Assembly (NCBI GenBank): GCA_963783695.1
Contig: CAWAOM010000006.1
Coordinates: 455,641 to 519,640 of the forward strand
Length of the DNA stretch: 64,000 bases
From: an uncultured Gammaproteobacteria bacterium
GTDB taxonomy: Bacteria; Pseudomonadota; Gammaproteobacteria; Steroidobacterales; BM003
Direction of reading: 5' to 3'
Shown here: positions 36,493-50,905 of the stretch, piece by piece
How positions within the stretch are numbered: position 1 is the stretch's first letter
Layout of the letters: the number at the start of each line of letters is the position of its first letter
Translations under genes and position numbers: made by a program
The notes under the pieces: model-generated
Told to the model about the DNA's origin: nothing
Database searches by the model: none
What the model saw: only the letters and a program-made list of their open reading frames with translations

Positions 36493-36846
36493 ATGGCTGC
36501 GAGACACAGAGCGCTAGCAGGCGCATTGGCCTGCGCGGTCGCCATGAGTGTTTTTGGCACCGCACAGGCTGCCGATTCGGATGGCCAGGCCCTGTTCAAG
36601 GACAACTGCAATAGCTGTCACGGCGATGGGTCGCCAAACGGTGAATACACACCGATGACGTTGATACAGGATCAGTGGACGCGCTTTTTCGAGCGCAAGT
36701 TCGAGCGCACCCACAAAGACGTCATGGATCCGGCCAACGGCAATCGCCCGGTAACCGAAACCATCTCACCCGAGGAACTGGAGGCGATCAAGAAATTTGC
36801 CGTGGATCACGCCGCCGACTCCGAAAACCCGATGACCTGTGGTTAA
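36493..36846 (+). CDS. Small periplasmic monoheme c-type cytochrome
   Basis: The ORF at 36475 was trimmed to the ATG at 36493, which has GGAGG about 8 nt upstream. It has a signal peptide (..AMSVFGTAQA/AD) and a single CNSCH heme motif near the mature N-terminus. The precursor is 117 aa. Confidence 0.8.
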   Translation: MAARHRALAGALACAVAMSVFGTAQAADSDGQALFKDNCNSCHGDGSPNGEYTPMTLIQDQWTRFFERKFERTHKDVMDPANGNRPVTETISPEELEAIKKFAVDHAADSENPMTCG

Positions 36847-36860
36847 AAAAGGGGACAATC

Positions 36861-38645
36861 ATGTTACGCAAAAGCATCTTTACCGCAGTCGCAGCGCTGG
36901 CGGTGATCATGGGTGCGCCACCGCCTGCTGCGTGGGCGGACTCCGATGAACTGAGCATGGAGGAACTGACTCAGCAGGTCGAAGCCATGCAAGCGCAAAT
37001 GGCCGTGTTGATGCAACGCCTCGAAGCCATGCAGCAGGAAGGCGAAGGCCTGCGCGAGGAAACCACCGTCCTGACCGAGGACATGGAGGACATGGACGAC
37101 CGGATGATGGTCGCCGAACGCCATGCGGTACTCGACAAGGTCAGGTTCAGTGGCGACTTCCGGACCCAGGTGCACTCGATCCAGGGCTCGATGATCGACC
37201 GGATCGACGGCATCAATGTGCAAAAAGACCTGGTCAATACGCTGTTTTTCTTCGGCGCGACAGGCTCGCCGCCGCAAACGCCGGACCTGAGCGATGTCGA
37301 CTCTTTCATACAGAACAATTACGACGACTATCTCTACTATCTCGACAACGTCGTCAGCTTCGACTTTATTCAGCAACAGGTTGGCGGACTGATGGAGCAG
37401 AATCCCGACATGGCTAACCAGCTGCTGCAGTTGCTGGCATCGCAGCAGGACAGCTTCATCGAGGGTTATGACCACGACAACGACATCGTCTACACCAGCC
37501 GGCTGCGCTTCCGCACCCAGGCCGACGTGGCCGAAGACGTTGTCTTCGACGGCCGCCTGTCGATGTACAAGGTCTGGGGCGACTCGACCGGCGTGCAGGT
37601 ATTCAACGGTCAGCCGACGTCGATCAACTGGGACGGCACCACATCCAACGTGCCGAATTCCGATATTCTCCGGGTCGAGCGCGCCTACTTTACCTGGAGC
37701 GATATTGCCGACCTGCCGATGTATCTCTCTGTCGGCCGCAGACCCTCGACAGGTGGTGTCCCGCTGAACTTCCGTGAAGACGAGCCACGCGGCGGCACGC
37801 CGATCGGCTCGTTGTTCAATTATCAGTTCGACGGTATCACCTGGGGCTATCACCTGAGCGATATCTCGACGTTCCGTATCTGCTACGGCCTTGGTTACGA
37901 GTCCGAGTGGGGTAATGGCAGCGAATATTTCGATTCGAACAATCGGCTCGACGACGCCTGGTTTATCGGCGCCGTCTGGGATGTATGGGACACCGACCGG
38001 ATGTTCGTCCAGTTGAATGCCGCCACGGCCCAGGATATTACCGATGGATTCAATGGCACCGTCGTGATTCCGTTCGACCCGGTCTCGGGTCAGAGCGCAC
38101 CGGCGCCGGCGGTAATCCGCTACACGCCGACCGACAACATTGGTGACATGAATCTCGCCGGCGTAGTGGTCGTGCGTCACGACGGACCGTTCGATTACTT
38201 CGCGAGCCTCAACTACAGCGAATCCGACCCGCAGAATGTCACGACGCCGTTCGGCGGACTGTTCGCGGATCCTTTTGACACGCCTGATGACGAAAACGGC
38301 CACATGTACTACCTCGGTGGGCGCTACAATTTCCCCAACGGCGTAACGAAGCTGGGTCTCGAGTTCAACCATGGTTCGAAGTACTGGTTCAACTTCGCGC
38401 TGGCCGAGGACGACTTTTTCGCCCCCAAGACCAGCACCCGCGGCGACGTGTGGGAGGTCTATCTCACGCACCGAATCCGCGACCGTTTCATCGTGAAGCT
38501 GGACTACATGTATTACGACTATGACTACTCCGGTTCCGGCTGGTTGCTGGGCGCACCGAAAGACGTGGACGATCTCAATATTCACGCCACTCCGGTCTAC
38601 GAAGATGCCAGCAAGGTCATGGCGAGCTTCCACGCACGCTTCTAG
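36861..38645 (+). CDS. Outer-membrane beta-barrel protein with N-terminal periplasmic coiled coil (resembles my recollection of the DUF3373 family)
   Basis: The ORF at 36675 was trimmed to the ATG at 36861, 14 nt after the cytochrome stop and preceded by AAAGGGG. It has a signal peptide (..PPAAWA/DS) and a heptad-repeat Met/Gln/Glu-rich segment. About 500 aa of alternating aromatic/polar strands follow, ending ...SFHARF (the C-terminal Phe OMP signature). Confidence 0.7.
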   Translation: MLRKSIFTAVAALAVIMGAPPPAAWADSDELSMEELTQQVEAMQAQMAVLMQRLEAMQQEGEGLREETTVLTEDMEDMDDRMMVAERHAVLDKVRFSGDFRTQVHSIQGSMIDRIDGINVQKDLVNTLFFFGATGSPPQTPDLSDVDSFIQNNYDDYLYYLDNVVSFDFIQQQVGGLMEQNPDMANQLLQLLASQQDSFIEGYDHDNDIVYTSRLRFRTQADVAEDVVFDGRLSMYKVWGDSTGVQVFNGQPTSINWDGTTSNVPNSDILRVERAYFTWSDIADLPMYLSVGRRPSTGGVPLNFREDEPRGGTPIGSLFNYQFDGITWGYHLSDISTFRICYGLGYESEWGNGSEYFDSNNRLDDAWFIGAVWDVWDTDRMFVQLNAATAQDITDGFNGTVVIPFDPVSGQSAPAPAVIRYTPTDNIGDMNLAGVVVVRHDGPFDYFASLNYSESDPQNVTTPFGGLFADPFDTPDDENGHMYYLGGRYNFPNGVTKLGLEFNHGSKYWFNFALAEDDFFAPKTSTRGDVWEVYLTHRIRDRFIVKLDYMYYDYDYSGSGWLLGAPKDVDDLNIHATPVYEDASKVMASFHARF

Positions 38646-38655
38646 GAGCAGAAAA

Positions 38656-40116
38656 ATGGCATTCCGTCTCCTCGTAACAATCCTGATTACAGCCACGATG
38701 AGCACGGCTGTGCAGGCAGAGCCGAAACAGTGGCGTCACGCCAAATTTTTCGACGAGTACGAAGGCACCAGCACATGCCTGAGATGCCACGAAGAGGAGG
38801 CGGAGTCTTTCTTCCATAGCCAGCACTACCAGTGGCGCGGTGAGACTCCCGCCGTCGTAAACAGCGACGGCGAGGGTCTCGGTAAACTATCGATGATTAA
38901 CGATTTCTGCACCAACCCGAGCGGTAAGCAGTGGATCGGCAAGGTCAAGAACGCGGATGGCAAAACGCTCGCCAAAGGATGCTCCACCTGCCATGCCGGT
39001 CTCGGCAAGGTGCCCGCTCGCGAAGTCAGTCGTGAGCAACTGGAAAATATCGACTGCCTGATCTGTCACAACTCCGGCTATCGGCGAGACCTGTACGCAA
39101 ACGACGACGGCAGTTGGGAGTGGCGGCCGATACTGTGGAAAAACAAGGAAGGCATGAACGCAGTCGGTCAGCGTGTATCTCTGCCGAACCGAACCATGTG
39201 TCTGCGTTGTCATTCAGCCTCAGGCGGCGGTCCGAATTACAAACGCGGCGACCTCGAATACATTCTCAAGGACCCGCCGCGTAAACACGATGTGCACATG
39301 GCGACGAATGCCAACGGCGGCCCCGACCTGTTGTGCATCGACTGTCATGGCGGTGACGGCCACCGCGTCCTCGGCCGCGGCGTCGATCTCGCCGCAAGCG
39401 ACAGCCCGGACCAACGCCTGTCCTGCGAGGGCAGCTGCCACGGCAGCACCCCACACAAGGTCGCAGCCCTGGACGGCCATACCAGCCGTGTCTACTGCAC
39501 CACCTGTCATATCCCGCGGTTCGCGAAAAGCGAACCCACCGATATGTTCCGCGACTGGTCCAATATTTCGTTCTCCGAGGAAAAGGGAAAATACACCTAC
39601 AGCGTGCGGCGACTGGAAGCGGACGTGGAACCGGAATACGCCTGGTTCAATGGCGAAAGCTGGTTGCAGCTTGCGGGCAAACCCGTACGCCGCGACAAAA
39701 ACGGAATCATCGAAATGGTCCTGCCGGAAGGCTCCCGCGATGATCCGGATGCGCGCATCGTCGGCTTCAAGGTACACCAATCGATGATGCCGGTATTGAA
39801 GGGCAAGGACTGGCTGCTGCCGATTCACACCGAAGAGGTCTATGCAGACGGCAACGTCGACAAGGCTGTACGCGAAGCGGCGCGTGAATTCTACGGGCTC
39901 GAAAACATCGATTATTCATGGCAAGAAACCAAACGTTACATGGGTATCTACCATGGCGTCGCTCCGGCGGAAGAAGCACTCCGGTGTCTCGATTGTCATG
40001 GCCCGGATGGGCGAATGAAGTGGACCCAACTCGGCTATGAAGGCGATCCGCTAGAGCAACGCTTCGGCAGCGCAGCCGGCGGGGCAACCGAGACCTCCAT
40101 CGCCGCAAAGAACTGA
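38656..40116 (+). CDS. Octaheme c-type cytochrome (7 CXXCH + 1 CX3CH), Sec-exported
   Basis: The ORF at 38521 was trimmed to the ATG at 38656, 10 nt after the barrel gene stop and preceded by AGGAG. It has a signal peptide (..MSTAVQA/EP). The heme motifs are CLRCH, CSTCH, CLICH, CLRCH, CIDCH, CEGSCH, CTTCH and CLDCH. Confidence 0.85.
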   Translation: MAFRLLVTILITATMSTAVQAEPKQWRHAKFFDEYEGTSTCLRCHEEEAESFFHSQHYQWRGETPAVVNSDGEGLGKLSMINDFCTNPSGKQWIGKVKNADGKTLAKGCSTCHAGLGKVPAREVSREQLENIDCLICHNSGYRRDLYANDDGSWEWRPILWKNKEGMNAVGQRVSLPNRTMCLRCHSASGGGPNYKRGDLEYILKDPPRKHDVHMATNANGGPDLLCIDCHGGDGHRVLGRGVDLAASDSPDQRLSCEGSCHGSTPHKVAALDGHTSRVYCTTCHIPRFAKSEPTDMFRDWSNISFSEEKGKYTYSVRRLEADVEPEYAWFNGESWLQLAGKPVRRDKNGIIEMVLPEGSRDDPDARIVGFKVHQSMMPVLKGKDWLLPIHTEEVYADGNVDKAVREAAREFYGLENIDYSWQETKRYMGIYHGVAPAEEALRCLDCHGPDGRMKWTQLGYEGDPLEQRFGSAAGGATETSIAAKN

Positions 40117-40141
40117 CTCGATTGCATTGGTTTACAATCGT

Positions 40142-40174
40142 CCCGGGCGCTACCACTGTGGCGCCCGGGTTTTT
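40142..40174 (+). terminator. Rho-independent terminator after the octaheme cytochrome gene
   Basis: CCCGGGCGC-(10 nt)-GCGCCCGGG followed by TTTTT, starting 25 nt after the stop codon. Confidence 0.7.
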
Positions 40175-40187
40175 CGTGGGGGTCTTC

Positions 40188-41252
40188 ATGCGCAAGGTAT
40201 TGCTGGTCGCGGTCCTGATCGGAGCTACGATAGCGGCATTCGCGCTGGTGCCGGGCCGGGTTGACCCGGCTGCCTGGCTGCCTCCTCCGGCGCCGCCGCT
40301 TGGCGGCGCCTTTGCCCCCAACGACTCGCTCAAAAGTGCCGAGCTTCTTGCGCTCGGCCAGGTTTATGGTCCCGAGGACGTCGCGGTTGATGACGAGGGC
40401 CGGGTTTACGGCGGTACCCAGGACGGAAAAATCATCCGCGTACTGGCTGACGGCGCGGTCGAGACCTTCGCGGAGACAGGTGGCCGGCCGCTCGGCCTGC
40501 ACTTCGACGGCGCAGGCAATCTGATCGTTGCCGATGCCTATCGCGGCCTACTATCACTCAGCCCGGGCGGCGACATCGCCGTTCTGACAACGGCCGCCGA
40601 TGGCGTCCCATTCGGCTTCACCGACGATCTCGATATCGGCAGCGACGGCACGATCTATTTCAGCGATGCAAGCAGTAAATTCGACCAGGCCGAATACATG
40701 CTGGACCTGCTCGAAATGCGTCCGCACGGACGACTGCTGGCTTACTATCCCGCAACCGGCGAGACCCGCGTATTACTAGATAGCCTGTACTTCGCCAACG
40801 GTGTCGCACTGTCGCGGGACGAGTCCTTTGTGCTCGTCAACGAAACCTGGGCATACCGGATCCGGCGGCTGTGGCTGCGCGGCGACAGGGCCGGCACCTC
40901 TGACGTTTTCGTCGACAACCTGCCCGGGTTCCCGGACGGAATCTCGGCCAACCGCAATGGCCGGTTCTGGCTGGCACTGCCGACCACGCGGCTGACCAGC
41001 ATCGACAGAATGCATCCGCACCCGTGGATCAAACGGCTCTCGTCACGCCTGCCGGATTGGCTCAAACCGAAACCCGTCGCATATGGACTCGTGGCGGAAC
41101 TCGACGAACAGGGGAATGTACTTGCCAGCTACCATGACAGCGATGGCCTCCACCTCCAGGAAATCACCTCGGTGGAGGAGCACGGTGGCTACGTCTACCT
41201 CGGCACGCTGCACGGAGACCGCATCGGCCGGCTGAAACTGCCCGAACGTTAG
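40188..41252 (+). CDS. Membrane-anchored strictosidine-synthase-like / SMP-30-gluconolactonase-type six-bladed beta-propeller protein
   Basis: The ORF at 40122 was trimmed to MRKVLLVAVLIGATIAAFALV (N-terminal anchor). Motifs GPEDVAVDDEGRVY, GRPLGLHFDGAGNLIVADA, FTDDLDIGSDGTIYFSDAS and YFANGVALS are typical of the family. Confidence 0.75.
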   Translation: MRKVLLVAVLIGATIAAFALVPGRVDPAAWLPPPAPPLGGAFAPNDSLKSAELLALGQVYGPEDVAVDDEGRVYGGTQDGKIIRVLADGAVETFAETGGRPLGLHFDGAGNLIVADAYRGLLSLSPGGDIAVLTTAADGVPFGFTDDLDIGSDGTIYFSDASSKFDQAEYMLDLLEMRPHGRLLAYYPATGETRVLLDSLYFANGVALSRDESFVLVNETWAYRIRRLWLRGDRAGTSDVFVDNLPGFPDGISANRNGRFWLALPTTRLTSIDRMHPHPWIKRLSSRLPDWLKPKPVAYGLVAELDEQGNVLASYHDSDGLHLQEITSVEEHGGYVYLGTLHGDRIGRLKLPER

Positions 41253-41286
41253 GCCGGACATCGGCTAAAGCCGGCCCAACAGAGTG

Positions 41287-44200
41287 CTACCCGGCCTTGC
41301 GCCGGGAGCGCAAAAACCGGCGCAGGGCTTTCGCCGTGTGCGAACCAGAGCGTGTTTTCGCTACCTGCTCGGGGGTACCCGAAGCGACGATCCGACCGCC
41401 GTCCGCTCCGCCTTCCGGGCCCAGATCGAGCACCCAGTCGGCTTCCGCCACGACATCGAGGTTGTGCTCGATCACAACGACGGAATTACCGGCATCCACC
41501 AGTCGATGCAATACCGTAATAAGTTTTTCCACATCGGCCATGTGCAGACCCACAGTGGGCTCATCAAGAACGTAAAGACACGGCTTGCTGCGGCGACCTC
41601 GCGGGCCCGGCAATTCGGGCCGCGCTTTGGCCAGTTCGGTAACCAGTTTGATGCGCTGCGCCTCCCCTCCGGACAAGGTCGGACTTGGCTGGCCGAGGGT
41701 CAGATAGCCGAGACCGACATCCTTCATCAACTGCAGCGCATGGCTGACCTTGGGATGCACCGCAAAGAACTCGACGGCTTCGTCGACGCTCATCGCGAGC
41801 ACCTCCCCGATATTGCGGCCGCGAAAGACCACCTCGAGCGTTTCCGCAGCGAAACGCGCGCCGCGGCAAACCTCGCAGCCGACACGAACATCTGGCAGAA
41901 AACTCATCTCGATCCGTTTTACACCCTGCCCCTCGCAGGCCGAACATCGTCCGCCCGAAACGTTGAACGAAAAACGTCCCGGCGAATAACCGCGCAATCG
42001 CGCTTCTTCAGTTCGGGCGAACAGACGTCGTACCTCATCCCAGATTCCGACATACGTGGCGGGACAGGACCGCGGCGTTTTCCCGATCGGCGTTTGGTCG
42101 ACCTCGAGAATACGCCCGAGACCGTTCCAGCCCTCGATCGCCCGACAACCTGCAAGCTTCGGTTTTCTGCCCGATTTCGCTTTCCGAGCAAGCAGCCCCC
42201 TGACATTGCGATGCAGGACATCACGCACAAGCGTACTCTTGCCACTGCCGCTGACACCCGTCACGCACACAAGCGCGGCAAGCGGAAATCGCACATCGAC
42301 ATCGGACAAATTATGAAGTGACGCTGCCACGATAGTGAGCCCCGTCGCAGCGTTATCGCCATTGATCTCGCGGCGCGTCCCGCGCAGTGGATGGCGCAAT
42401 GGCGCGGCCATCATGCGGCCGGTGACGGAGTCGGGGTCACGCAGCAATTCCTCGATGGTGCCGGCCGCAACGACTTCGCCGCCGCGAACACCCGCGCCCG
42501 GCCCAAGATCGATGACATGCCGGGCCCGCCGGATCGTATCCTCGTCGTGCTCCACGACCACAACAGTGTTGCCTTTGCGCGCAAGACGCTCCAGCGCGTC
42601 GAGCAGCCTGCGATTGTCACGGGTATGAAGACCGATGGTCGGCTCGTCCAGGATGTAACAGACACCGCGAAGATTCGATCCGAGTTGAGCGGCAAGTCGA
42701 ATACGCTGTGCTTCGCCACCCGACAATGTCGGCGCCGCCCGATCCAGCCCGAGGTAGCCAAGCCCGACCTGGTTTAAAAATTTCAGGCGGGTCCTCAGTT
42801 CGGCAAGAATGTCGCGCGCAATTTCGCGATCACGGGCCGCCAGACGAAGGCGCGCGAAACGCCGCTCCGCCTGCGCCACCGACAGCGCGGTCATTTCCGT
42901 GATACTGACATCCTGATAACGAATCGCGCGCGCCTCGCGATTCAGTCTCGCGCCGTCGCAAACACTGCAAACCGCATGTTCCGTGCCCGCCTCATCGCTG
43001 AGCCACATATTCTCTTCGCCGCTTTGTTCGGCATCAAAGTCCTGCAGTTGCAAGCCGGTCCCAAAACAGGCCGGACACCAGCCATGGCGGGAGTTAAACG
43101 AAAACAACCGCGGGTCTGGCTCCGCAAAACTGCTGGCGCAACCCGGGCAGGAGCGGTTTATCGAAAACAGATTGTCGGCTTTCCTGCGCCCGCTCGCGGC
43201 GCAAACCAGGACATTGCCCTTGCCAATCTGCAGCGCGGCATCCAGCAGCGCACCCAGCCTCGCGTCGTTGCCAGGCGTGACGTCTACCTCGCCAACGGGC
43301 AGTTCAATGTCGTGCTCCCTGAAGCGGTCAAGCCGCGGCCATGGCTGTACCGGCACCATATCGCCGTCGACGCGCAATTCCGCGTACCCCCGCGACTCCG
43401 CCCAGCGCGCCAGGTCGGTGTAGTAGCCCTTGCGCGCAACCACCAGCGGTGCCAGGACTCGCACCTTGCGGCCACGGTACTTTCTGAGTATCCCCGCCCG
43501 GATCTGGTCGCGCGTCTGGGGTTCGATCGGCAGGTCGCAATCGGGGCAGTACTGCGTGCCGAGCTTGACGAACATCAGGCGGAGAAAGTGATATATCTCG
43601 GTTAACGTTGCGACGGTGCTTTTGCGTCCGCCGCGACTGGTTCGTTGTTCAATTGCCACGGTTGGAGGAATACCGGTGATTGCATCGACGTCCGGGCGGC
43701 TGGCCGGTTGCACAAACTGGCGGGCGTAAGCATTCAGGGACTCGAGATAACGGCGCTGGCCTTCGGCAAACAGGATGTCGAAGGCAACCGTGCTCTTGCC
43801 GCTGCCACTGACGCCGGTAATGACGGTAAAGCCGTCGCGCGGAATATCGAGATCGACGTTTTTGAGGTTGTGCTCGCGCGCATTGCGGACAGAAATCATG
43901 GCGTTGCGGTCAGCCGAATACGCTGTCGCCGCTTCGGCGACGCTGCGCGGCAGTCGCGCCCGGTCAGCCAGTTCTTGTTGCGAGATACGGTACGCGGCGA
44001 GCGCGCGACCGGTTTGACTCGCCGCGCAGTCAAGTAAATCCGCGACCGTTCCGGCAAAGACCAGTTCGCCCCCGCCCTCGCCGCCTTCCGGACCGAGATC
44101 AATTACCCAGTCGGCCGCGCCAATGACATCGAGATTGTGTTCAATAACAACGATTGCATGACCATCGTCCAGCAGCTGATCAAATGCCCAAAGCAGCCGT

Positions 44201-46893
44201 GCAATGTCATCAAAATGAAGTCCGGTCGTCGGCTCGTCGAAAAGGAACAGCGTCGGCAAGCCCGCGGCCGAGCGGCGTGATTTACCGCGCCCGCCGGCTA
44301 AATGGGCCGCGAGCTTCAGACGCTGCGCTTCACCGCCGGATAGAGTCGGTACGGGTTGCCCGAGCCGCAGATAATCCAGTCCAACCGCAGCCAGTGGCTC
44401 AAGGCGTCGCCTTACCTCTGCATCATGGCCGAAATAGGTAATTGCTTCCGCCACGGTCAGCTCGAGCACGTCCGCCACCGACAATGCACGCCGCGCCACC
44501 ATGGCATCCTCATGCAGCGGCGGCACCAGTGTTACGTCGAGCACTTCCGGCCGATAGCGCCGCCCGTTGCAATCGGCGCAACGCAGGTACACATCGGACA
44601 GAAACTGCATTTCCACGTGTTCGAAACCGTTGCCGCCGCACGCCGGACAGCGGCCGTCGCCGGTATTGAAACTAAACGTCCCAGCGGTATATCCACGTTC
44701 CCTAGACAGCGGCTCTGCGGCAAACGCTTTGCGAATTGCAGCGAATGCGCCGACGAAACTCGCCGGGTTCGAGCGTGTCGTTTTGCCGATGGGAGACTGA
44801 TCGACCATCACCACATCGCCAACATGATCCATCCCGCGCAATTCGCGATGAGCGCCGGATGGATCTTGCGGCTTGCCCAGTTTTTCCAGTGCGGCGCGAT
44901 ACACCACATCCTGCACGAGCGTCGATTTTCCCGAACCGCTTACGCCGGTAACGCAAACCAGTCCATGCAATGGAAACTCGACGTCCACGTTCTTGAGATT
45001 GTTCTCGGCGGCAGCGGCTACCCGCAGTCGCGGCGTGCGATTGTCGACTGCCACGCGTGCTCTGACGCCACGATCAACGACCCGTTCGCTGCGCAAGAAC
45101 CTGGCGGTCGGCGACACGTCGGACTCGAGCAGCGCCTGGGGCGTACCGAAAAACACGATTTCGCCACCGCGTTCGCCCGGCCCCGGGCCCATGTCGAGAA
45201 TCCTGTCTGCGGCCACCATAATCTGCGGATCATGCTCCACGACGAGCAGCGTGTTTCCGGCATCGCGCAGGCGCGTAAGGATGCCGACAATCCGTTCGAC
45301 ATCGCGCGGATGCAGACCGATACTCGGCTCGTCGAGCACGAACAGCGTATTGACCAGCGAAGTGCCCAACGCGGTGGTCAGATTGATGCGCTGGACCTCG
45401 CCTCCGGACAGCGTCCGTGACTGGCGATCAAGCGTCAGATAACCGACACCGACCTCCTCGAGATACTGCAGACGAATACGAATCTCCGCGAGCAGACGCG
45501 CCACCGCCTCGTCCATCGGTGGCGGCAATTCGAGTCCAGCGAAAAAACGCCGACAGCGTTCGATCGGCAGGCACATCACATCATGGACATTCAGCCCTGG
45601 AAGAGAATCGAAACGGCGCGGTTTGATCGCTACGCCTTGCGGCCGGAATCGCCGCGCCGGCGCAAGGCAGGTATCAGCATCGCCGCGACTGCCGAGGCGC
45701 CACAACAGACTATCGGTTTTCAGACGGGCCCCGGCACATCCCGCGCAGACGTTGTAGGCCCGGTATTTGGATAGCAGCACCCGAATGTGCATCTTGTAGG
45801 ACTTGGTTTCGAGCCAGGCGAAAAAACGCCGGACGCCATAGAACTTGCCGTCCTCCCAACTGCCCTCGCCCTCCAGTACCCATTGCCGATGGCGTTCGTC
45901 CAGCTCCGACCATGGCCGGTCGGCAGGTATGCTGCGCAGACGCGCAAACCGGATCAGGTCGTCCTGGCACTCGCGGTAGCTCTTTGATTGCCACGGCCTG
46001 ACCGCACCCTCGGCGAGGCTCAGCGATCCATCCGGCACGACCAGGCGGAAATCGATGTCCATGCTGCGACCAAAACCGCGGCACTCCTCGCAGGCACCAA
46101 GCGGGGAGTTGAACGAAAAGCGGTTGGACAAGGGGTCATCGTAATGGATATCGCAGGCGGCGCAGTGCAGATCGGCGGAGAAGCGGATCGTTTGCAGCGG
46201 CGGGTCCAGCAGCGCCACTTCGATCCGGCCGGAACCGTGTTGCAGTGCCGCCTCGACCGCTTCGAGCAGACGCTCACGATTGCGTTTTTCGAGCCGCAGC
46301 CGATCCTGCACGACCTGCAGCCGATCCGCAGCCAGCTTATCGACCCGAACGTAACCCTGCTGGGCAAGGTAGGCGCGAATCTCCGCCTCGGTGAAATTAT
46401 CCGGAATAGCGACGTCGAACGTTACACTCGCGCGAACGCCCCGTCCGTCACCGGACTTTGCTGTTCGCATCAGCGCGCGGACGATCCGTTGCGGATCATC
46501 CCGCACCACCTCGGTACCGCAGTCGCGACAAAACAGCCGTGCCGCACGGGCAAACAAAAGCTTGATGTGATCGTTGAGTTCGGTCATTGTCCCGACCGTC
46601 GAGCGCGAGGTCCGGACAGGATTCGTCTGATCTATGGCTATGGCCGGCGGGATCCCGTCGACACGTTCGGCACGCGGCTTGTCCATACGATCGAGAAACT
46701 GCCGCGCATAGGGCGAGAAGGTCTCGACATAACGGCGCTGCCCTTCCGCATAAACCGTGTCGAACGCCAGCGACGATTTGCCCGAACCGCTGACCCCGGT
46801 GACGACGATCAGCTCATTGAGGGGCAGATCGATGTCGAGATTGCGCAGATTGTTCTGCGCAGCGCCCCTGATTGATATGCAGTGGTTTGACAC
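41287..46893 (-). CDS. Tandem-fused double UvrA-like ABC ATPase (1868 aa; two complete UvrA units in one ORF)
   Basis: It has four Walker A motifs (GVSGSGKS at aa 33, 650, 1027 and 1546) and four LSGGE signatures (aa 495, 851, 1390 and 1740). Cys-pair zinc modules occur in both units. Unit 2 begins at aa ~999 with a typical UvrA N-terminus (MISVRNAREHNLKNVDLDIPRD). Confidence 0.9.
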   Translation of the reverse strand: MSNHCISIRGAAQNNLRNLDIDLPLNELIVVTGVSGSGKSSLAFDTVYAEGQRRYVETFSPYARQFLDRMDKPRAERVDGIPPAIAIDQTNPVRTSRSTVGTMTELNDHIKLLFARAARLFCRDCGTEVVRDDPQRIVRALMRTAKSGDGRGVRASVTFDVAIPDNFTEAEIRAYLAQQGYVRVDKLAADRLQVVQDRLRLEKRNRERLLEAVEAALQHGSGRIEVALLDPPLQTIRFSADLHCAACDIHYDDPLSNRFSFNSPLGACEECRGFGRSMDIDFRLVVPDGSLSLAEGAVRPWQSKSYRECQDDLIRFARLRSIPADRPWSELDERHRQWVLEGEGSWEDGKFYGVRRFFAWLETKSYKMHIRVLLSKYRAYNVCAGCAGARLKTDSLLWRLGSRGDADTCLAPARRFRPQGVAIKPRRFDSLPGLNVHDVMCLPIERCRRFFAGLELPPPMDEAVARLLAEIRIRLQYLEEVGVGYLTLDRQSRTLSGGEVQRINLTTALGTSLVNTLFVLDEPSIGLHPRDVERIVGILTRLRDAGNTLLVVEHDPQIMVAADRILDMGPGPGERGGEIVFFGTPQALLESDVSPTARFLRSERVVDRGVRARVAVDNRTPRLRVAAAAENNLKNVDVEFPLHGLVCVTGVSGSGKSTLVQDVVYRAALEKLGKPQDPSGAHRELRGMDHVGDVVMVDQSPIGKTTRSNPASFVGAFAAIRKAFAAEPLSRERGYTAGTFSFNTGDGRCPACGGNGFEHVEMQFLSDVYLRCADCNGRRYRPEVLDVTLVPPLHEDAMVARRALSVADVLELTVAEAITYFGHDAEVRRRLEPLAAVGLDYLRLGQPVPTLSGGEAQRLKLAAHLAGGRGKSRRSAAGLPTLFLFDEPTTGLHFDDIARLLWAFDQLLDDGHAIVVIEHNLDVIGAADWVIDLGPEGGEGGGELVFAGTVADLLDCAASQTGRALAAYRISQQELADRARLPRSVAEAATAYSADRNAMISVRNAREHNLKNVDLDIPRDGFTVITGVSGSGKSTVAFDILFAEGQRRYLESLNAYARQFVQPASRPDVDAITGIPPTVAIEQRTSRGGRKSTVATLTEIYHFLRLMFVKLGTQYCPDCDLPIEPQTRDQIRAGILRKYRGRKVRVLAPLVVARKGYYTDLARWAESRGYAELRVDGDMVPVQPWPRLDRFREHDIELPVGEVDVTPGNDARLGALLDAALQIGKGNVLVCAASGRRKADNLFSINRSCPGCASSFAEPDPRLFSFNSRHGWCPACFGTGLQLQDFDAEQSGEENMWLSDEAGTEHAVCSVCDGARLNREARAIRYQDVSITEMTALSVAQAERRFARLRLAARDREIARDILAELRTRLKFLNQVGLGYLGLDRAAPTLSGGEAQRIRLAAQLGSNLRGVCYILDEPTIGLHTRDNRRLLDALERLARKGNTVVVVEHDEDTIRRARHVIDLGPGAGVRGGEVVAAGTIEELLRDPDSVTGRMMAAPLRHPLRGTRREINGDNAATGLTIVAASLHNLSDVDVRFPLAALVCVTGVSGSGKSTLVRDVLHRNVRGLLARKAKSGRKPKLAGCRAIEGWNGLGRILEVDQTPIGKTPRSCPATYVGIWDEVRRLFARTEEARLRGYSPGRFSFNVSGGRCSACEGQGVKRIEMSFLPDVRVGCEVCRGARFAAETLEVVFRGRNIGEVLAMSVDEAVEFFAVHPKVSHALQLMKDVGLGYLTLGQPSPTLSGGEAQRIKLVTELAKARPELPGPRGRRSKPCLYVLDEPTVGLHMADVEKLITVLHRLVDAGNSVVVIEHNLDVVAEADWVLDLGPEGGADGGRIVASGTPEQVAKTRSGSHTAKALRRFLRSRRKAG

Positions 46894-47052: not shown

Positions 47053-48906
47053 CTAACCGCCGCGGCAGCCAAGCCAGCGGTCACGCCGCGCAACCGCTGC
47101 CGGGTCGCCATCCTCGCAGGTCAGAAAAACCACGTTGGCGGCAGCGGGCTGTAGTTCGACATCGAACGCAAGTAGCTGATCGCGGCGAAATATCATGACC
47201 GGCACGCGTTCACCGGGGTCGAAGGGTCTGAGCAACTCCGCAATATTCGCGGCCGTTACCCGCAGACCATCGATGGCGACCAGTTCATCTCCTGCCGCCA
47301 ATCCGGCTCGACATGCTGCACCGTCTTCGCTGATCTGACGCAGCAGGACCTTATCCGGCTTTAGCTCCAACGCGACGCCCAGTGCAACGTTGGGGCCGGG
47401 CGACCTCGCATCCGGCTTGCCGCCAAGGTCACCGGGACCGGTCGAGTGACGCCGCCCGCTACTTACCGCGAACTGCACGAGCAACTCCTCGAGCGGCAGA
47501 TCTCCGGTGCCACGGATCGCCTCGTCAAAAAACTCATCCATTGCGAGACCGGTTACCTCGCCCACCAGCTTCTCGAAACCGTCCTCGGGCATGCCCGCGC
47601 CGGCAACACCGTAGCGCTGCCATGCCGCGCGCATCACATCATCGAGCGAAAAACGCTCCTCGCTGTGTAGCCGAATACGGAGATCCAACGCGAGCGCCAC
47701 CAGCGAACCCTTGGCGTAATAACTGACGATTGCGTTCGGCGCGTTCTCATCCTGCTTGTAGAACCGCGTCCACGCGTCGAAACTCGACTCCGCCAGGCTC
47801 TGTTTGAGACGTCCGCTGCCGCCAATCACCCGGGTGACCGTCTGCCCCAGCAGCTCAAGATAACTGGCCGGGGCGATGAGCCTGCTACGCACCAGCGCCA
47901 GGTCATCGTAATAAGAGGTGATCCCTTCGAACACCCACAGCAGCGAAGTGTAACTTTCGTGCGCGAGCTCGTAGGGCGTGAATGCTTCGGGCTTGATCCG
48001 CTTGATATTCCACAGATGGAAATACTCGTGGCTTGCCAGCCCCAGAAAGCGGCGATAGGCATCGCTCACGGCCGCGCTTCCCGGCAATGGCAAATCGCTG
48101 CGACTGCACAACAGGCTGGTCGAGTCACGATGCTCGAGACCCCCGTAGCCATTGCCAAGCGCGGTCACCTGAAACAGATAGCGGCCCATCGGCGGCTCGC
48201 CACCGAAAAGATCGATATGGGTCTGACACAGCTGCGCGAGATCGGCGCAGAGCCGCTCCAGGTCGGCGTAATGATGACCCGTAATTGCAATCTGGTGCTC
48301 GACGCCGCCGGCGCTGAAACTGGCCAACGTAAAATCACCGATCTCGACCGGGTGATCGATCAACTCATCATAGTTTGCGGCGTGGTAGCGACCGAAGCCG
48401 CTGCCGTCGACATTCTCCGCGCGCATCGCCGTTGCCACGCGCCAGTGACTAAACTCGTCGTTCGCCGGAGCATCAATATCGACGACGCAACCCGCTTCTG
48501 CATGCCCCACGGCACGCAGGAATAGTGCTGCCCCGTTGAAGTAAGCATGAGTCGTATCGTAGTGGGCCCCGCGCACCGACAGGTCGTTGGCGTAGACCTC
48601 GTATTCGATTTCCAGCGGTCCGTCGCACGGCCCACAGACCCAGGTCGACTTGTCGCGTTTCCGGACATCGACCGCGATGTCGGCGCACCGTGCCCGGAAC
48701 GAAATGATATGCCGGGCAAAGTCGCGTATCAGGTAACTGCCGGGTATCCAGTTTGGCAGGTCGAACGCCTGACCCGCCGGATCGGGTTCGGCCACCAGGC
48801 AACGCACATGCAACACGTGACGCCCGGGCTGTAATGGGCGGACCGCATAACTTATTGACGCAGCCACGCTCACGACGGCGGCTCCGAAAGCCGCAGCGTC
48901 AGACAC
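47053..48906 (-). CDS. M61-family (glycyl aminopeptidase-type) metallopeptidase with C-terminal PDZ domain
   Basis: 617-aa ORF with HEYFHLWNIKRIKP (HExxH) and a PDZ-like region GLAAGDELVAIDGLRV. The start may instead be the GTG at 48873, giving a GTGA overlap with the upstream gene's stop. Confidence 0.88.
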   Translation of the reverse strand: MSDAAAFGAAVVSVAASISYAVRPLQPGRHVLHVRCLVAEPDPAGQAFDLPNWIPGSYLIRDFARHIISFRARCADIAVDVRKRDKSTWVCGPCDGPLEIEYEVYANDLSVRGAHYDTTHAYFNGAALFLRAVGHAEAGCVVDIDAPANDEFSHWRVATAMRAENVDGSGFGRYHAANYDELIDHPVEIGDFTLASFSAGGVEHQIAITGHHYADLERLCADLAQLCQTHIDLFGGEPPMGRYLFQVTALGNGYGGLEHRDSTSLLCSRSDLPLPGSAAVSDAYRRFLGLASHEYFHLWNIKRIKPEAFTPYELAHESYTSLLWVFEGITSYYDDLALVRSRLIAPASYLELLGQTVTRVIGGSGRLKQSLAESSFDAWTRFYKQDENAPNAIVSYYAKGSLVALALDLRIRLHSEERFSLDDVMRAAWQRYGVAGAGMPEDGFEKLVGEVTGLAMDEFFDEAIRGTGDLPLEELLVQFAVSSGRRHSTGPGDLGGKPDARSPGPNVALGVALELKPDKVLLRQISEDGAACRAGLAAGDELVAIDGLRVTAANIAELLRPFDPGERVPVMIFRRDQLLAFDVELQPAAANVVFLTCEDGDPAAVARRDRWLGCRGG

Positions 48907-49697
48907 TTTGCCGAGCCACCGGCCTTGATGAACTCCGACAGCGGCGTCTGGTGAACGACAAAGCCCAGCGATTCGAGGCGGCCGCGCAACTCACCGGACA
49001 TCCGGTTGACGAAAATATGCTTGCCGATGTTCACCGCGTTGCAGGCAAAATTACCGGCATCGGCGGTATCGCAGACGATCCGGCGCCGCGGCGGAATGCG
49101 TTTTTCGATCTCCAGCCGGGATTCATAATCGAATGCCGGCGGATGCCACAACAGGTAACCGGCCACCAAAGGACAGAAACAGGTATCGATGTGATAGAAG
49201 CGCGAATCGGTCAGCCTGATCGAAACGAGCTCGTGATCACTGAACCACTTGTGCAAATGCTCATGAGCCTCGATTTCGGTGCGAAAACCATGCCCGACCC
49301 ACAGCCATGGACCGCCGCGATCGAACAGCGAATCTCCGGCGCCCTCGAACCCAACATCGTCGGGCAGGTCGTATAAATCGAACCCGTTGTCGGCAAACCA
49401 CTTCTTGAAGTGGGCCTCCTCGGCCCGTCGTTCCAGCGGCAAAAAGTGACTGGCAATCGCCTTGTTGCCCCACACAGTTCCTGCATTCGCAGTAAACACC
49501 ATGTCGGGAAGGTCGGGCTGCGGGTCTATGGTTACGACCTCAGCCACCTCCTCGATTCCGGCTTTCAGAGCCAACCATTGTTCTTTTGCCAGCTCAAGCG
49601 ACAGATTTCCCTCCATGCCGTCCATCCATGGATTGATTACATAATCGACGGTGTAAAAATCCGGCGGGCACATCAATATCCGGTCACGCTCGTTCAT
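48870..49697 (-). CDS. Amidinotransferase-fold (guanidino-group-modifying) enzyme, DDAH / arginine-deiminase-type
   Basis: The ORF at 49796 was trimmed to MNERDRILMCPPDFYTVDYVINPWM. It has the YHIDTCF motif and a C-terminal GGSAKCLTL (catalytic Cys context). Confidence 0.8.
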   Translation of the reverse strand: MNERDRILMCPPDFYTVDYVINPWMDGMEGNLSLELAKEQWLALKAGIEEVAEVVTIDPQPDLPDMVFTANAGTVWGNKAIASHFLPLERRAEEAHFKKWFADNGFDLYDLPDDVGFEGAGDSLFDRGGPWLWVGHGFRTEIEAHEHLHKWFSDHELVSIRLTDSRFYHIDTCFCPLVAGYLLWHPPAFDYESRLEIEKRIPPRRRIVCDTADAGNFACNAVNIGKHIFVNRMSGELRGRLESLGFVVHQTPLSEFIKAGGSAKCLTLRLSEPPS

Positions 49698-49948
49698 TTT
49701 TCTCCCCATACCTGTACGGAGCGCCTGCGCTGCACCGGTCCGCCATGGCGAACGCCGGCACCACGAACACGGCTGGCAAATCCCATCCTTGCGCACCTGG
49801 CGAAGGACACGTAATGCGCACCGGGGAAAGGCCTGTCCGTAAACTCAAAAAGACTTTCGGCTGTTGGCGGCAGGCGCCACGGACAATGATTGCACCGCTT
49901 CGGCTGATGTCCGGCAACATCCGGAAAAGAACGCAATTGTAACGACTA

Positions 49949-50905
49949 TCAGCCCCCGGCGGTGGGCAAAAATATTTCCGCGACCATGCAGCGTACGCTT
50001 CCGCCGGCGCTGCGCTCTATATGTTCGACCGGCGCGGTCACGATCTGCGCATACGATTCCAGAGTGCGCACTTGCTCCGCATCCAAACTCTGACGCGCCT
50101 GAGCGGACATCAGCAGCAGCTCACGATCCTCGCCACTCCTGAGCTCAAGCATGTTTCCGGCAAACCGGGCAACCTGATTACGGCTGATTGCGACAATCTC
50201 ATGACCCGAACTACCCAGCCGCCTAAGGACGGCTTTGCGCTGTTGCGCGGTGGCGATAGCATCGACGCATATCACGGCGAAGCGCGTGCCAATACACATC
50301 ATTACATTGGTGTGATAGATCGGCCGCCCCGAGCGACCGACAGCATCGAATGCAACGACATCGAAATTCATTCGCTGACCAAATTCCGCCAGCACATCCA
50401 GATGCGTTCGCGAGGACAGGCAGGCATAGGCAACGCGATTGCTGCGGTCGAGAACCATACTTCCGGTGCTCTCGAGATAACGACCGTCGCGCTCATGATA
50501 GGAGAGATCAACAATATCGCTGATCCGGTAACCCCCCTCATTGCTAAGCGCCTCGATAATGTCCATGCGCCGCTCGCGCCGGCGATTCTCCGCTTCCATC
50601 GGATAGAGGACAACCGTGCCATCCGCATGAAAGCTGACCCAGTTATTCGGGAATATCGCATCGGGCGTGTGCGGCTGCGCCGTGTCGTCATAAACAATGA
50701 CTTTTACCCCGGCGGCGGTTAGCGCCGTGACGAGGCCATTAAACTCGGCGAGCGCTGCCTCCTGCTCCTGTGCCGGAGCGAGGTCGAGTTGCACCGCCTG
50801 AAATGCATTGGAGGAAAGTGTCTGCGGATTGCGCTGAAACCGCTCCGGCCTGACCATCACCACGGTATTTGTTGTCTGTCGCCAATTCGTATCGGTCGCG
50901 CTCAT
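49949..50905 (-). CDS. Second amidinotransferase-fold enzyme (arginine-deiminase-related / CtlX-like)
   Basis: 318-aa ORF with TVVMVRPERFQRNPQT, IYHTNVMM and a C-terminal GGSVRCMVAEIF (catalytic Cys context). Confidence 0.75.
   Translation of the reverse strand: MSATDTNWRQTTNTVVMVRPERFQRNPQTLSSNAFQAVQLDLAPAQEQEAALAEFNGLVTALTAAGVKVIVYDDTAQPHTPDAIFPNNWVSFHADGTVVLYPMEAENRRRERRMDIIEALSNEGGYRISDIVDLSYHERDGRYLESTGSMVLDRSNRVAYACLSSRTHLDVLAEFGQRMNFDVVAFDAVGRSGRPIYHTNVMMCIGTRFAVICVDAIATAQQRKAVLRRLGSSGHEIVAISRNQVARFAGNMLELRSGEDRELLLMSAQARQSLDAEQVRTLESYAQIVTAPVEHIERSAGGSVRCMVAEIFLPTAGG

What the first reader, a model, noticed from the sequence alone, without database searches (positions are those of the whole stretch)
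41287..46893. 1868-aa single ORF encoding two complete UvrA units in tandem, with the second unit missing the segment between zinc modules
Seen in sequence:
- One uninterrupted minus-strand ORF carries four GVSGSGKS Walker A motifs and four LSGGE signatures.
- Unit 2 starts at aa ~999 (nt ~43899) with an intact UvrA-type N-terminus that includes its own Met. A ~35-aa linker follows a recognisable UvrA C-terminus (..ASQTGRALAAY..), so two full genes have fused.
- The spacing between the second and third Cys pairs is 112 aa in unit 1 (C271 to C383) but only 33 aa in unit 2 (C1276 to C1309).

Established knowledge:
- Canonical UvrA is ~940 aa and works as a dimer.
- The region between these zinc modules is the insertion (DNA-contacting) domain.
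- I recall comparative surveys mentioning double-length 'class III' UvrA paralogues with no assigned function, but I cannot verify that here.

Inference: this is a covalent pseudo-dimer with asymmetric DNA-binding parts. It is probably not the housekeeping excinuclease, and could act in a specialised repair, drug-resistance or DNA-surveillance role.
Basis: partly seen in the sequence, partly recalled or inferred. Interest (0 to 1): 0.6.

Follow-up and report, generated by a model that had tools for sequence, protein, structure and literature searches.

The report
Tandem double-length UvrA repair protein
This gene encodes two UvrA DNA-damage-sensor units fused into one protein; it belongs to a widespread but functionally unstudied family in which each half has lost a different accessory domain, so the protein is probably a built-in asymmetric version of the normal UvrA dimer.

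Summary

It is not an artefact or a rarity. At least 120 database proteins and at least 597 species-representative genomes from several phyla carry the same uninterrupted fusion, annotated simply as "uvrA".

"Two complete UvrA units" is only partly right. Unit 2 lacks the insertion domain but keeps a canonical UvrB-binding domain. Unit 1 keeps a reduced insertion domain, and its UvrB-binding domain keeps the fold but has lost the canonical sequence. This complementary loss holds in all 76 relatives examined. All four ATPase sites are invariant, and the linker is unconserved.

Most likely it is an intramolecular pseudo-dimer that senses damage and recruits a single UvrB, working alongside a canonical UvrA. 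That coexistence is shown for Cupriavidus metallidurans CH34 but not for this genome. Several Burkholderiales relatives have LexA boxes upstream; this gene does not.

The gene is a new member of a known kind, which I recall as "class III" UvrA. Its function is untested. The architecture mirrors the asymmetric UvrA2-UvrB1 intermediate seen by cryo-EM in 2025.

The parts
41287..46893 (-). Whole tandem-UvrA ORF, 1868 aa with a GTG start, stop codon included.
   Evidence: An exact match, P0001, exists in public data, and the same start (MSHNCISIRG..) is seen in the 89%-identical P0002.
43999..46893 (-). Unit 1 (aa 1-965): two ABC nucleotide-binding domains and three Zn modules, with a degenerate UvrB-binding domain and a reduced insertion domain.
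   Evidence: NCBIfam UvrA PRK00349 scores 928 bits over 3-966. Alignment to E. coli UvrA gives 38.8% identity. The AF2 model best matches class I UvrA structures, TM 0.59-0.65.
46165..46518 (-). Unit 1 UvrB-binding-like domain (aa 126-243), between the Zn1 Cys pairs C122/C125 and C244/C247.
   Evidence: Pfam UvrA_inter scores only 26.5 bits and covers profile columns 61-107 of 109. There is a 15-aa deletion, and LAP..RKG is replaced by VTFDVAIPDNF. Only 12 of 34 positions shared by E. coli and unit 2 are kept. The region is nevertheless confidently folded, pLDDT 85-92, with the same order of strands and helices as unit 2's domain.
45748..46080 (-). Unit 1 insertion (DNA-binding) domain (aa 272-382), reduced and all-helical, between the Zn2 Cys pairs C268/C271 and C383/C386.
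   Evidence: Pfam UvrA_DNA-bind scores 48 bits over profile columns 1-65 of 110. About 19 aa are deleted where canonical UvrA has the beta-hairpin. The domain is well conserved in the family, consensus fraction 0.72. Mtb Y323 aligns to invariant C309, and invariant Y306 lies one helical turn upstream.
43900..43998 (-). Inter-unit linker (aa 966-998).
   Evidence: Median identity to relatives is 16% and the consensus fraction is 0.28. Its length is 23-73 aa in the family, median 35. pLDDT is below 50.
41290..43899 (-). Unit 2 (aa 999-1868): two ABC nucleotide-binding domains, three Zn modules and a canonical UvrB-binding domain, with no insertion domain.
   Evidence: NCBIfam PRK00349 scores 1072 bits. 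Identity to E. coli UvrA is 43%. The AF2 model matches class I UvrA structures at TM 0.71-0.78.
43150..43536 (-). Unit 2 UvrB-binding domain (aa 1120-1248).
   Evidence: Pfam UvrA_inter scores 90.5 bits over profile columns 1-105 of 109. The E. coli UvrB-binding domain matches this half in 76 of 76 relatives, median 35 bits. The LAP..RKG..T, R.DG and H.IE motifs are shared with E. coli.
42970..43065 (-). Site of the insertion-domain deletion in unit 2: 32 aa between C1276 and C1309.
   Evidence: The spacing is 33-55 aa in all relatives that have 12 CxxC motifs. The E. coli insertion domain never matches unit 2. pLDDT is below 50 here.
46774..46797 (-). Walker A motif 1 (aa 33-40).
   Evidence: K39 is invariant in 76 of 76 relatives.
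44923..44946 (-). Walker A motif 2 (aa 650-657).
   Evidence: K656 is invariant.
43792..43815 (-). Walker A motif 3 (aa 1027-1034).
   Evidence: K1033 is invariant.
42235..42258 (-). Walker A motif 4 (aa 1546-1553).
   Evidence: K1552 is invariant.
44569..44649 (-). Unit 1 C-terminal zinc finger, Zn3 (C749, C752, C772, C775), in signature domain II.
   Evidence: The adjacent DNA-binding motif VDQSPIGKTTRSNP is conserved.
41866..41946 (-). Unit 2 C-terminal zinc finger, Zn3 (C1650, C1653, C1673, C1676).
   Evidence: The adjacent motif VDQTPIGKTPRSCPAT is almost invariant.

Best explanation
The gene encodes a member of the widespread tandem (double-length) UvrA family.

**Shown**
- One polypeptide carries two UvrA-type units joined by a variable, probably disordered tether of about 33 aa.
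- All four ABC ATPase sites and both signature-II/zinc-finger DNA-binding surfaces are intact.
- Only the C-terminal unit keeps a canonical UvrB-binding domain. Only the N-terminal unit keeps an insertion (DNA-clamping) domain, and that one is reduced.

**Inferred**
- The two units fold back on each other as an intramolecular equivalent of the UvrA2 dimer and bind DNA across both signature-II surfaces.
- Unit 1's insertion domain engages the distorted site.
- Unit 2's UvrB-binding domain, unobstructed by an insertion domain of its own, recruits a single UvrB (or Mfd).
- The protein therefore feeds lesions into the ordinary UvrB/UvrC excision pathway as a fixed-asymmetry A2B1-type sensor. It acts as an accessory to a canonical UvrA and probably has a different lesion or DNA-structure preference.
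For: **Identity**
- The UvrA models and motifs are all present.
- Both halves match class I UvrA better than class II, by sequence and by fold. For half 1, sequence scores are 732 bits against Bst UvrA and 531 against DrUvrA2. For half 2 the corresponding scores are 849 and 602, and its best class I hit overall (9gxk) scores 871.

**Reality of the fusion**
- 120 full-length homologues at 64-89% identity.
- At least 597 species genomes, from Nitrospirota, Thermodesulfobacteriota, Gamma- and Betaproteobacteria, Verrucomicrobiia and Spirochaetaceae.

**Complementary domain loss, conserved in the family**
-.

**Catalytic competence**
- Walker A Lys, Walker B Asp-Glu, LSGGE and the H-loop His are invariant at all four sites in 76 members.
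- The linker is unconserved and variable in length.

**Fit to canonical mechanism**
- In Mtb UvrA2-DNA one insertion domain is the recognition-ID and the other the support-ID.
- The first UvrB binds the protomer whose insertion domain has been released, because UvrB binding and insertion-domain contact with DNA exclude each other within one protomer.
- The lesion is proposed to pass from the recognition-ID to the UvrB held by the opposite protomer (PMC11985968).
- UvrB also contacts signature II of the other protomer (PMC12796330).

**Link to the damage response**
- LexA-type boxes lie 60-190 bp upstream of the gene in Bordetella, Pandoraea and Cupriavidus loci: 4 of 72 loci against 0.56% of background windows.

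**Accessory status**
- CH34 has uvrA1 on CHR1 and this tandem gene on CHR2.
- The gene also sits on the secondary replicons of 134 Ralstonia records.
Against: - There is no experiment on any family member in the literature held here.
- The intramolecular pseudo-dimer could not be modelled: at 1868 aa the protein exceeds the 1200-aa limit of the structure predictor.
- Unit 1's UvrB-binding-like domain is still well folded and has invariant surface residues. It may bind UvrB weakly, or another partner.
- Unit 1's insertion domain lacks the beta-hairpin, and a Cys aligns with the Tyr that the Mtb study found important for retention on damage. Recognition may therefore differ from the canonical mechanism.
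- This gene has no LexA box and no repair genes as neighbours. The family has no conserved gene context.
- A canonical uvrA in this genome was not demonstrated.
Confidence: 0.6

Rival explanations
1. It is the organism's only, housekeeping UvrA. A tandem version would simply replace the homodimer, as the double-length UvrA of Chlamydia is thought to do.
For: - Only 64 kb of the genome is visible, and it holds no other uvrA.
- All catalytic and DNA-binding motifs are intact.
- A curated NCBIfam model exists for a double-length UvrA, NF001885 (1809 positions), which shows that long UvrAs can carry the UvrA name.
Against: - C. metallidurans CH34 has both uvrA1 and this tandem gene.
- In Ralstonia, Cupriavidus and Burkholderia the gene lies on secondary replicons.
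- It is not next to ssb or any conserved partner.
- It scores 1090 bits against the 3054-bit cutoff of the Chlamydia-type model.
- Each half alone falls below the PRK00349 equivalog cutoff.
Confidence: 0.1
2. It works without UvrB, like class II UvrA proteins (DrrC, Ecm16). It would be an ATP-driven DNA-binding protein that displaces intercalators or other non-covalent DNA ligands, or otherwise protects DNA.
For: - UvrA paralogues lacking UvrB-binding function confer drug resistance independently of uvrA, uvrB, uvrC and uvrD (PMC9328131).
- Unit 1 has lost the canonical UvrB-binding sequence, and the Burkholderiales subgroup has even lost its Zn1 cysteines.
- Other tandem families lack the UvrB-binding domain in both halves.
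Against: - Unit 2 keeps a complete UvrB-binding domain, conserved in 76 of 76 relatives.
- Both halves are nearer to class I than to class II structures.
- There is no biosynthetic cluster or efflux gene nearby.
- LexA boxes occur upstream in some relatives.
Confidence: 0.15
3. It is an assembly or frameshift artefact that joins two adjacent uvrA-like genes.
For: None beyond the unusual length.
Against: - The junction is in frame, has no homopolymer run, and the alternative frames are full of stops.
- The identical architecture is found in at least 120 proteins and at least 76 independent genomes, including complete genomes such as G. metallireducens GS-15, T. thiocyanaticus, CH34 and R. pseudosolanacearum GMI1000.
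Confidence: 0.01
4. It is a component of an anti-phage defence system related to MADS.
For: PADLOC mad3 scores 505 bits and mad8 scores 228 bits.
Against: - E. coli housekeeping UvrA scores 342 and 124 bits on the same two models, more than either half alone, so this is generic UvrA homology.
- No methyltransferase or other defence genes are adjacent.
- There is no conserved neighbourhood.
Confidence: 0.02

Closest known systems
Class I (canonical) UvrA, e.g. E. coli UvrA, B. stearothermophilus 2R6F/3UWX, M. tuberculosis 3ZQJ/9GA3, C. thermocellum 9GXK
   Same: - Each half has the full two-NBD ABC core, three Zn modules and the signature-II DNA-binding motif.
- These are the best sequence and fold matches.
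- Unit 2 has a canonical UvrB-binding domain.
   Different: - There are two units in one chain instead of a homodimer of about 940-aa chains.
- Unit 2 has no insertion domain.
- Unit 1 has a sequence-degenerate UvrB-binding domain and an insertion domain without the beta-hairpin.
- Each half alone falls below the PRK00349 equivalog cutoff.
"Class III" double-length UvrA paralogues. I recall this term from Goosen & Moolenaar 2008 (DNA Repair); the paper is not held and could not be verified.
   Same: Double length, tandem UvrA units, no assigned function, and found alongside a canonical uvrA. An example is uvrA2 (Rmet_4549) of C. metallidurans CH34.
   Different: None detected; this gene appears to be an ordinary member, 56-89% identical to relatives. 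Whether the published class description includes the complementary domain loss could not be checked.
Class II UvrA (D. radiodurans UvrA2 2VF7; Ecm16 7SH1; DrrC)
   Same: Like these proteins, unit 1 lacks canonical UvrB-binding sequence. Both are UvrA paralogues that coexist with a canonical UvrA (PMC9328131; PMC5128194).
   Different: - Class IIa proteins lack Zn1 and the whole UvrB-binding domain and are single units of about 800-840 aa.
- Here unit 1 keeps Zn1 and the domain fold, and unit 2 has a full UvrB-binding domain.
- Similarity to class II is lower than to class I.
Chlamydia-type long UvrA (NCBIfam NF001885 / PRK00635, 1809 positions)
   Same: Double-length UvrA.
   Different: The score is 1090 bits against a cutoff of 3054, and the best stretch aligns unit 2 to the first half of the model. 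This is a different, independently arisen tandem family.
Other tandem UvrA architectures found here (P0139, P0146, P0222 types)
   Same: Two UvrA units in one chain.
   Different: - P0139 (2334 aa) has both accessory domains in both halves, plus an extension.
- P0146 has its UvrB-binding domain in half 1 only, and insertion domains in both halves.
- P0222 (about 1658 aa) has no UvrB-binding domain at all.
- Both halves of 21 such representatives are closer to E. coli UvrA than to this protein's halves.

Membership tests
UvrA superfamily (ABC ATPase damage sensor) | Two ABC nucleotide-binding domains per unit, each with Walker A, signature LSGGE, Walker B and H-loop. | tested here: met
   Four complete motif sets are present, and they are invariant in 76 relatives.
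UvrA superfamily (ABC ATPase damage sensor) | Overall UvrA fold. | tested here: met
   The AF2 models of both halves (pLDDT 69.5 and 72.9) have UvrA structures as their top Foldseek hits, E 1e-69 to 1e-80, TM 0.59-0.78.
Class I canonical UvrA | A single unit of about 940 aa that homodimerises. | tested here: not met
   The chain is 1868 aa and holds two units.
Class I canonical UvrA | UvrB-binding domain in every unit. | tested here: not met
   Unit 2 scores 90.5 bits with a complete match. Unit 1 scores 26.5 bits with a partial match. Family-wide the E. coli domain scores a median of 35 against 6 bits.
Class I canonical UvrA | Insertion (DNA-binding) domain in every unit. | tested here: not met
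   It is absent from unit 2, where only 32 aa lie between the Zn2 Cys pairs. In unit 1 it is reduced.
Class I canonical UvrA | Reaches the NCBIfam equivalog cutoff (PRK00349, 1147 bits). | tested here: inconclusive
   The whole protein scores 1995 bits, but only as the sum of two units. The halves alone score 928 and 1072, below the cutoff. TIGR00630 (cutoff 730) is passed by each half.
Class I canonical UvrA | Supports UvrB loading and UvrABC incision, and complements a uvrA mutant. | not testable with these tools
   This needs biochemistry or genetics.
Tandem ("class III") UvrA family | Two UvrA units in one uninterrupted polypeptide of about 1800-2000 aa. | tested here: met
Tandem ("class III") UvrA family | Coexists with a canonical uvrA in the same genome. 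| not testable with these tools
   Only 64 kb of this genome is available, and it holds no second uvrA. Coexistence is shown for the relative CH34.
Class II UvrA (UvrA2 / DrrC / Ecm16) | Lacks the Zn1 module and the whole UvrB-binding domain; single unit. | tested here: not met
   The Zn1 Cys pairs are present in both units. Unit 2 has a full UvrB-binding domain. Class II structures score lower than class I.
Chlamydia-type long UvrA (NF001885) | Reaches the model's cutoff of 3054 bits. | tested here: not met
   The score is 1090 bits.
MADS defence system (mad3 / mad8) | Specific match beyond generic UvrA homology, with mad gene neighbours. | tested here: not met
   The E. coli UvrA control scores 342 and 124 bits on the same models. 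The neighbours are unrelated.

The most novel reading that the evidence does not exclude
The tandem protein is a genetically hard-wired version of the transient asymmetric UvrA2-UvrB1 damage-recognition intermediate. Unit 1 would be a permanent recognition protomer, with an insertion domain and no working UvrB site. Unit 2 would be a permanent loading protomer, with a UvrB site and no insertion domain to displace. The protein would then load exactly one UvrB in a fixed geometry relative to the lesion. If so, a single UvrB and a single insertion domain suffice for excision repair, and nature would have supplied a reagent to settle the A2B2 versus A2B1 question and the question of how the damaged strand is chosen.
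Probability: 0.3. Interest if true: 0.65.

Novelty: new member of a known kind. Interest (0 to 1): 0.4.

Why it matters
How UvrA picks the damaged strand, and whether it hands DNA to one or two UvrB molecules, are still open questions. PMC11985968 states that the stoichiometry (A2B2 or A2B1) and the way the strand is identified remain unclear.

A natural UvrA pseudo-dimer with four conserved ATPase sites, but only one canonical UvrB-binding domain and one insertion domain, sited on opposite units, is a ready-made asymmetric mutant that a homodimer cannot provide. It allows each site to be mutated separately within one chain.

The family is also common: at least 597 species, including Ralstonia, Bordetella, Burkholderia, Cupriavidus and Geobacter. 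It is annotated as plain "uvrA", so genome-based inventories of repair capacity miscount it. For this particular window, however, the gene is an ordinary member of that family.

Tried and rejected
- **Literature.** All ten full-text searches found nothing on tandem or class III UvrA (class III UvrA, UvrA2, paralog, duplication, tandem and similar). Goosen & Moolenaar 2008, Marszalkowska 2013 and Pakotiprapha 2009 are not held. The class III label and the UvrA-UvrB interface residues therefore rest on memory or were left out.\n- **Source genome.** The exact protein P0001 is not on record for a contig look-up and carries no name. The organism and its other uvr genes could not be examined.\n- **Conserved neighbourhood.** ORFs from 80 loci were clustered, and no neighbour family occurs in more than 9 loci. 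Rejected as a source of functional clues.\n- **SOS control of this gene.** There is no CTGT-N8-ACAG box anywhere in the window. The promoter and terminator scans were at background level.\n- **Defence-system reading.** The PADLOC mad3 and mad8 hits were rejected after the E. coli UvrA control.\n- **Split-gene precursors.** P0151 is a fragment cut by a contig end. P0267 is a genuine stand-alone unit resembling unit 1, but its partner, if any, lies beyond the contig end.\n- **Recent internal duplication.** Rejected: the halves are no closer to each other than to E. coli UvrA.\n- **Whole-protein structure.** The full protein, and with it the pseudo-dimer, could not be modelled because of the 1200-aa limit. 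Only the two halves were modelled.
Full report
**1. The observation**

Window 41287..46893 on the minus strand is a single 1868-codon ORF with a GTG start. A motif scan gives the following:
- GVSGSGKS at aa 33, 650, 1027 and 1546.
- LSGGE at aa 495, 851, 1390 and 1740.
- Four Walker B DEP motifs and four H-loop motifs.
- Twelve CxxC pairs, arranged as two sets of three zinc modules.
- C271 to C383 is 112 aa and C1276 to C1309 is 33 aa.

Unit 1 ends with a recognisable UvrA C-terminus (..ASQTGRALAAY). A stretch of 33 aa follows, and then M999 opens a second UvrA N-terminus. The junction is in frame, has no homopolymer run, and the other two frames are full of stops.

**2. It is real and common**

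- A database search returned the exact protein plus 119 further full-length relatives of 1834-2021 aa at 64-89% identity. They include Geobacter metallireducens GS-15, Thiohalobacter thiocyanaticus, Ca. Manganitrophus, Geoalkalibacter and Nitrosoglobus.
They come from Nitrospirota, Thermodesulfobacteriota, many Gamma- and Betaproteobacteria, Verrucomicrobiia, Spirochaetaceae and Chitinispirillaceae.
- The gene is on the secondary replicons of 134 Ralstonia records and of Cupriavidus, Burkholderia, Mycetohabitans and Caballeronia. Where it is annotated, it is called simply "uvrA: excinuclease ABC subunit UvrA".
- That name is explained by NCBIfam. The UvrA equivalog PRK00349 (cutoff 1147 bits) is passed by the whole protein at 1995 bits only because two units add up. 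Each half alone scores 928 or 1072.

An assembly artefact is excluded.

**3. Anatomy**

I aligned both halves with E. coli UvrA, scanned them against Pfam, and modelled each half with AlphaFold2. The models have mean pLDDT 69.5 and 72.9, and their best fold matches are class I UvrA structures. Each half has the complete two-NBD core and three zinc modules, but the accessory domains differ.

Unit 2 (aa 999-1868):
- It has a canonical UvrB-binding domain at aa 1120-1248. Pfam UvrA_inter scores 90.5 bits over profile columns 1-105 of 109.
- It has no insertion domain. Only 32 aa lie between the Zn2 cysteine pairs.

Unit 1 (aa 1-965), insertion domain at aa 272-382:
- Pfam matches only 65 of its 110 columns.
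- About 19 aa are missing where canonical UvrA has a beta-hairpin, and the model is all-helical.
- The Tyr that the M. tuberculosis study found important (Y323) aligns with an invariant Cys (C309). An invariant Tyr (Y306) lies one helical turn upstream.

Unit 1, region equivalent to the UvrB-binding domain (aa 126-243):
- It is confidently folded (pLDDT 85-92), with the same order of strands and helices as unit 2's domain.
- It has a 15-aa deletion.
- It has lost 22 of the 34 positions that unit 2 shares with E. coli, including the LAP..RKG motif.

So "two complete units" is not accurate. The two units have lost complementary parts.

**4. The pattern is a family trait**

In 76 relatives taken from the genome loci:
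- The Zn2 spacing is 113-121 aa in unit 1 and 33-55 aa in unit 2.
- The E. coli UvrB-binding domain matches unit 2 in 76 of 76 relatives (median 35 bits) and unit 1 only weakly (median 6 bits). The E. coli insertion domain never matches unit 2.
- A Burkholderiales subgroup has even lost the Zn1 cysteines of unit 1.
- Walker A Lys, Walker B Asp-Glu, LSGGE and the H-loop His are invariant at all four sites. The signature-II DNA-binding motif is conserved in both units.
- The linker is the least conserved segment, at 16% median identity. Its length ranges from 23 to 73 aa.

**5. Origin and relatives**

On 629 well-aligned core columns the two halves are 47.6% identical to each other, while they are 49.8% and 55.9% identical to E. 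coli UvrA. The fusion is therefore ancient, or the halves come from already diverged genes. It is not a recent internal duplication. Both halves score higher against class I than against class II structures.

An exhaustive search with unit 1 against representatives of 50%-identity clusters showed that tandem UvrA proteins are numerous. Nearly all of the best 150 hits are 1550-2340 aa long. They fall into several architectures:
- 29 representatives share this protein's arrangement.
- Others have both accessory domains in both halves (P0139).
- Others have a UvrB-binding domain only in half 1 (P0146).
- Others have no UvrB-binding domain at all (P0222, about 1650 aa).

The Chlamydia-type long UvrA model is not matched: 1090 bits against a cutoff of 3054. 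One genuine stand-alone protein resembling unit 1 exists (P0267). Another candidate, P0151, was a fragment cut by a contig end.

**6. Context and regulation**

The neighbours in the window are unrelated to repair:
- DUF3373
- a multihaem cytochrome
- a strictosidine-synthase-like protein
- an M61 peptidase
- two DDAH-like proteins

Across 80 loci no neighbour family recurs in more than 9. The window has no LexA box and no second uvrA.

In relatives, however, exact LexA-type boxes lie 60-190 bp upstream of the gene; an example is TACTGTTTATATATACAGAT. They occur in two Bordetella, one Pandoraea and two Cupriavidus loci. That is 4 of 72 scanned loci, against 0.56% of random windows. This ties the family to the DNA-damage response in at least some lineages.

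PADLOC hits to MADS mad3 and mad8 are generic. E. coli UvrA scores higher on those models than either half does.

**7. Is it the housekeeping enzyme?**

This could not be tested for this genome. In C. metallidurans CH34 the genome paper lists uvrA1 (Rmet_0313, CHR1) and uvrA2 (Rmet_4549, CHR2) (PMC2864759). CH34's CHR2 carries the full tandem gene at 1154970-1160758. Coexistence with a canonical uvrA is thus shown for one relative and is likely for the Ralstonia and Burkholderia megaplasmid copies.

**8. Mechanism**

Steps marked *shown* rest on the results above; steps marked *inferred* do not.

- *Shown:* two UvrA units in one chain; four intact ATPase sites; two DNA-binding surfaces; one canonical UvrB-binding domain on unit 2; one reduced insertion domain on unit 1; a flexible tether.
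- *Inferred:* the units pair within the chain like a UvrA2 dimer.

Recent cryo-EM of M. tuberculosis UvrA (PMC11985968) reports four things:
- The two insertion domains divide labour, one as the recognition-ID and one as the support-ID.
- The first UvrB binds the protomer whose insertion domain has been released, because UvrB binding and insertion-domain contact with DNA clash within one protomer.
- The result is a UvrA2-UvrB1 intermediate.
- The lesion is proposed to pass from the recognition-ID to the UvrB held by the opposite protomer.

The C. thermocellum work adds that UvrB also contacts signature II of the other protomer (PMC12796330).

The tandem protein looks like this intermediate made permanent. 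The insertion domain is on unit 1, and on unit 2 the UvrB site has no insertion domain to obstruct it. I therefore favour an accessory damage sensor that loads a single UvrB.

Several caveats remain:
- Unit 1's UvrB-binding-like domain is still folded and under constraint, so it may bind something.
- Its insertion domain lacks the hairpin, and a Cys aligns with the Tyr used for lesion retention, so substrate choice may differ.
- No experiment exists in the literature I could reach.

**9. Verdict**

The gene is an ordinary member of a large, already catalogued but uncharacterised family. I recall this family as "class III" UvrA, which I could not verify. Interest is moderate. The gene itself is no surprise to a specialist, but the architecture offers a direct handle on the open questions of UvrA-UvrB stoichiometry and strand choice.

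Noticed in passing
P0121-P0270; examples P0139, P0146, P0222: Tandem UvrA proteins are very diverse. Besides this family there are types with both accessory domains in both halves plus a C-terminal extension of about 450 aa (2334-2343 aa). There are also types with a UvrB-binding domain only in half 1, and types of about 1600-1680 aa with none. This suggests several independent fusions.
   Followed up: partly
L011:1986, L030:9980, L063:9859, L080:9925, L087:2832: Exact LexA-type boxes (CTGT-N8-ACAG with an AT-rich centre) lie 60-190 bp upstream of the tandem uvrA in Bordetella, Pandoraea and Cupriavidus. They occur in 4 of 72 scanned loci against 0.56% of random windows. The window's own gene has none.
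   Followed up: partly
window 41287-46893; PADLOC models PDLC04135 (mad3) and PDLC04140 (mad8): The MADS defence models mad3 and mad8 are UvrA-like. E. coli housekeeping UvrA scores 342 and 124 bits on them, so any UvrA will be flagged by these models unless gene context is also required.
   Followed up: yes
window 41287-46893; NCBIfam NF001503: The UvrA equivalog cutoff of 1147 bits is passed only by the sum of the two units (1995 bits). Each unit alone is below it (928 and 1072 bits). This explains why pipelines name these 1900-aa proteins plain "UvrA".
   Followed up: yes
L049, L051, L056, L057, L061, L063, L065-L067, L069, L071, L073-L077, L080: A Burkholderiales subgroup of the family has 9 instead of 12 CxxC motifs. 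Both Zn1 cysteine pairs of unit 1 are gone. The first Zn1 pair of unit 2 also no longer reads CxxC, although E. coli has CPDH at that position, so this loss may be only apparent. It looks like further decay of unit 1's UvrB-binding module.
   Followed up: partly
L085:6001-8922 (P0267, 973 aa): A stand-alone single-unit UvrA with its own stop codon. It resembles unit 1: its insertion domain is like unit 1's and its UvrB-binding region is weak. It could be a relative of the fusion's precursor. The contig ends 151 bp downstream, so a neighbouring unit-2-like gene cannot be excluded.
   Followed up: partly
window 36675-41252: A DUF3373 protein, a multihaem c-type cytochrome of about 530 aa (its ORF overlaps the DUF3373 ORF by about 125 bp) and a strictosidine-synthase/SGL-like protein lie on the plus strand, ending convergent with the uvrA gene. 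This may be an outer-membrane electron-transfer module.
   Followed up: no
window 47053-50905: An M61 glycyl aminopeptidase with a PDZ domain lies directly upstream on the same strand. Beyond it are two adjacent DDAH-like (dimethylarginine dimethylaminohydrolase family) genes, one a strong match and one a weak match.
   Followed up: no
window 41284-42321 (+), 44356-45420 (+), 45988-46875 (+): Long antisense ORFs of 295-354 aa lie inside the uvrA gene. They are shadow ORFs typical of 62% GC DNA, not genes. Similar antisense ORFs of about 2000 aa appeared in some related loci.
   Followed up: partly
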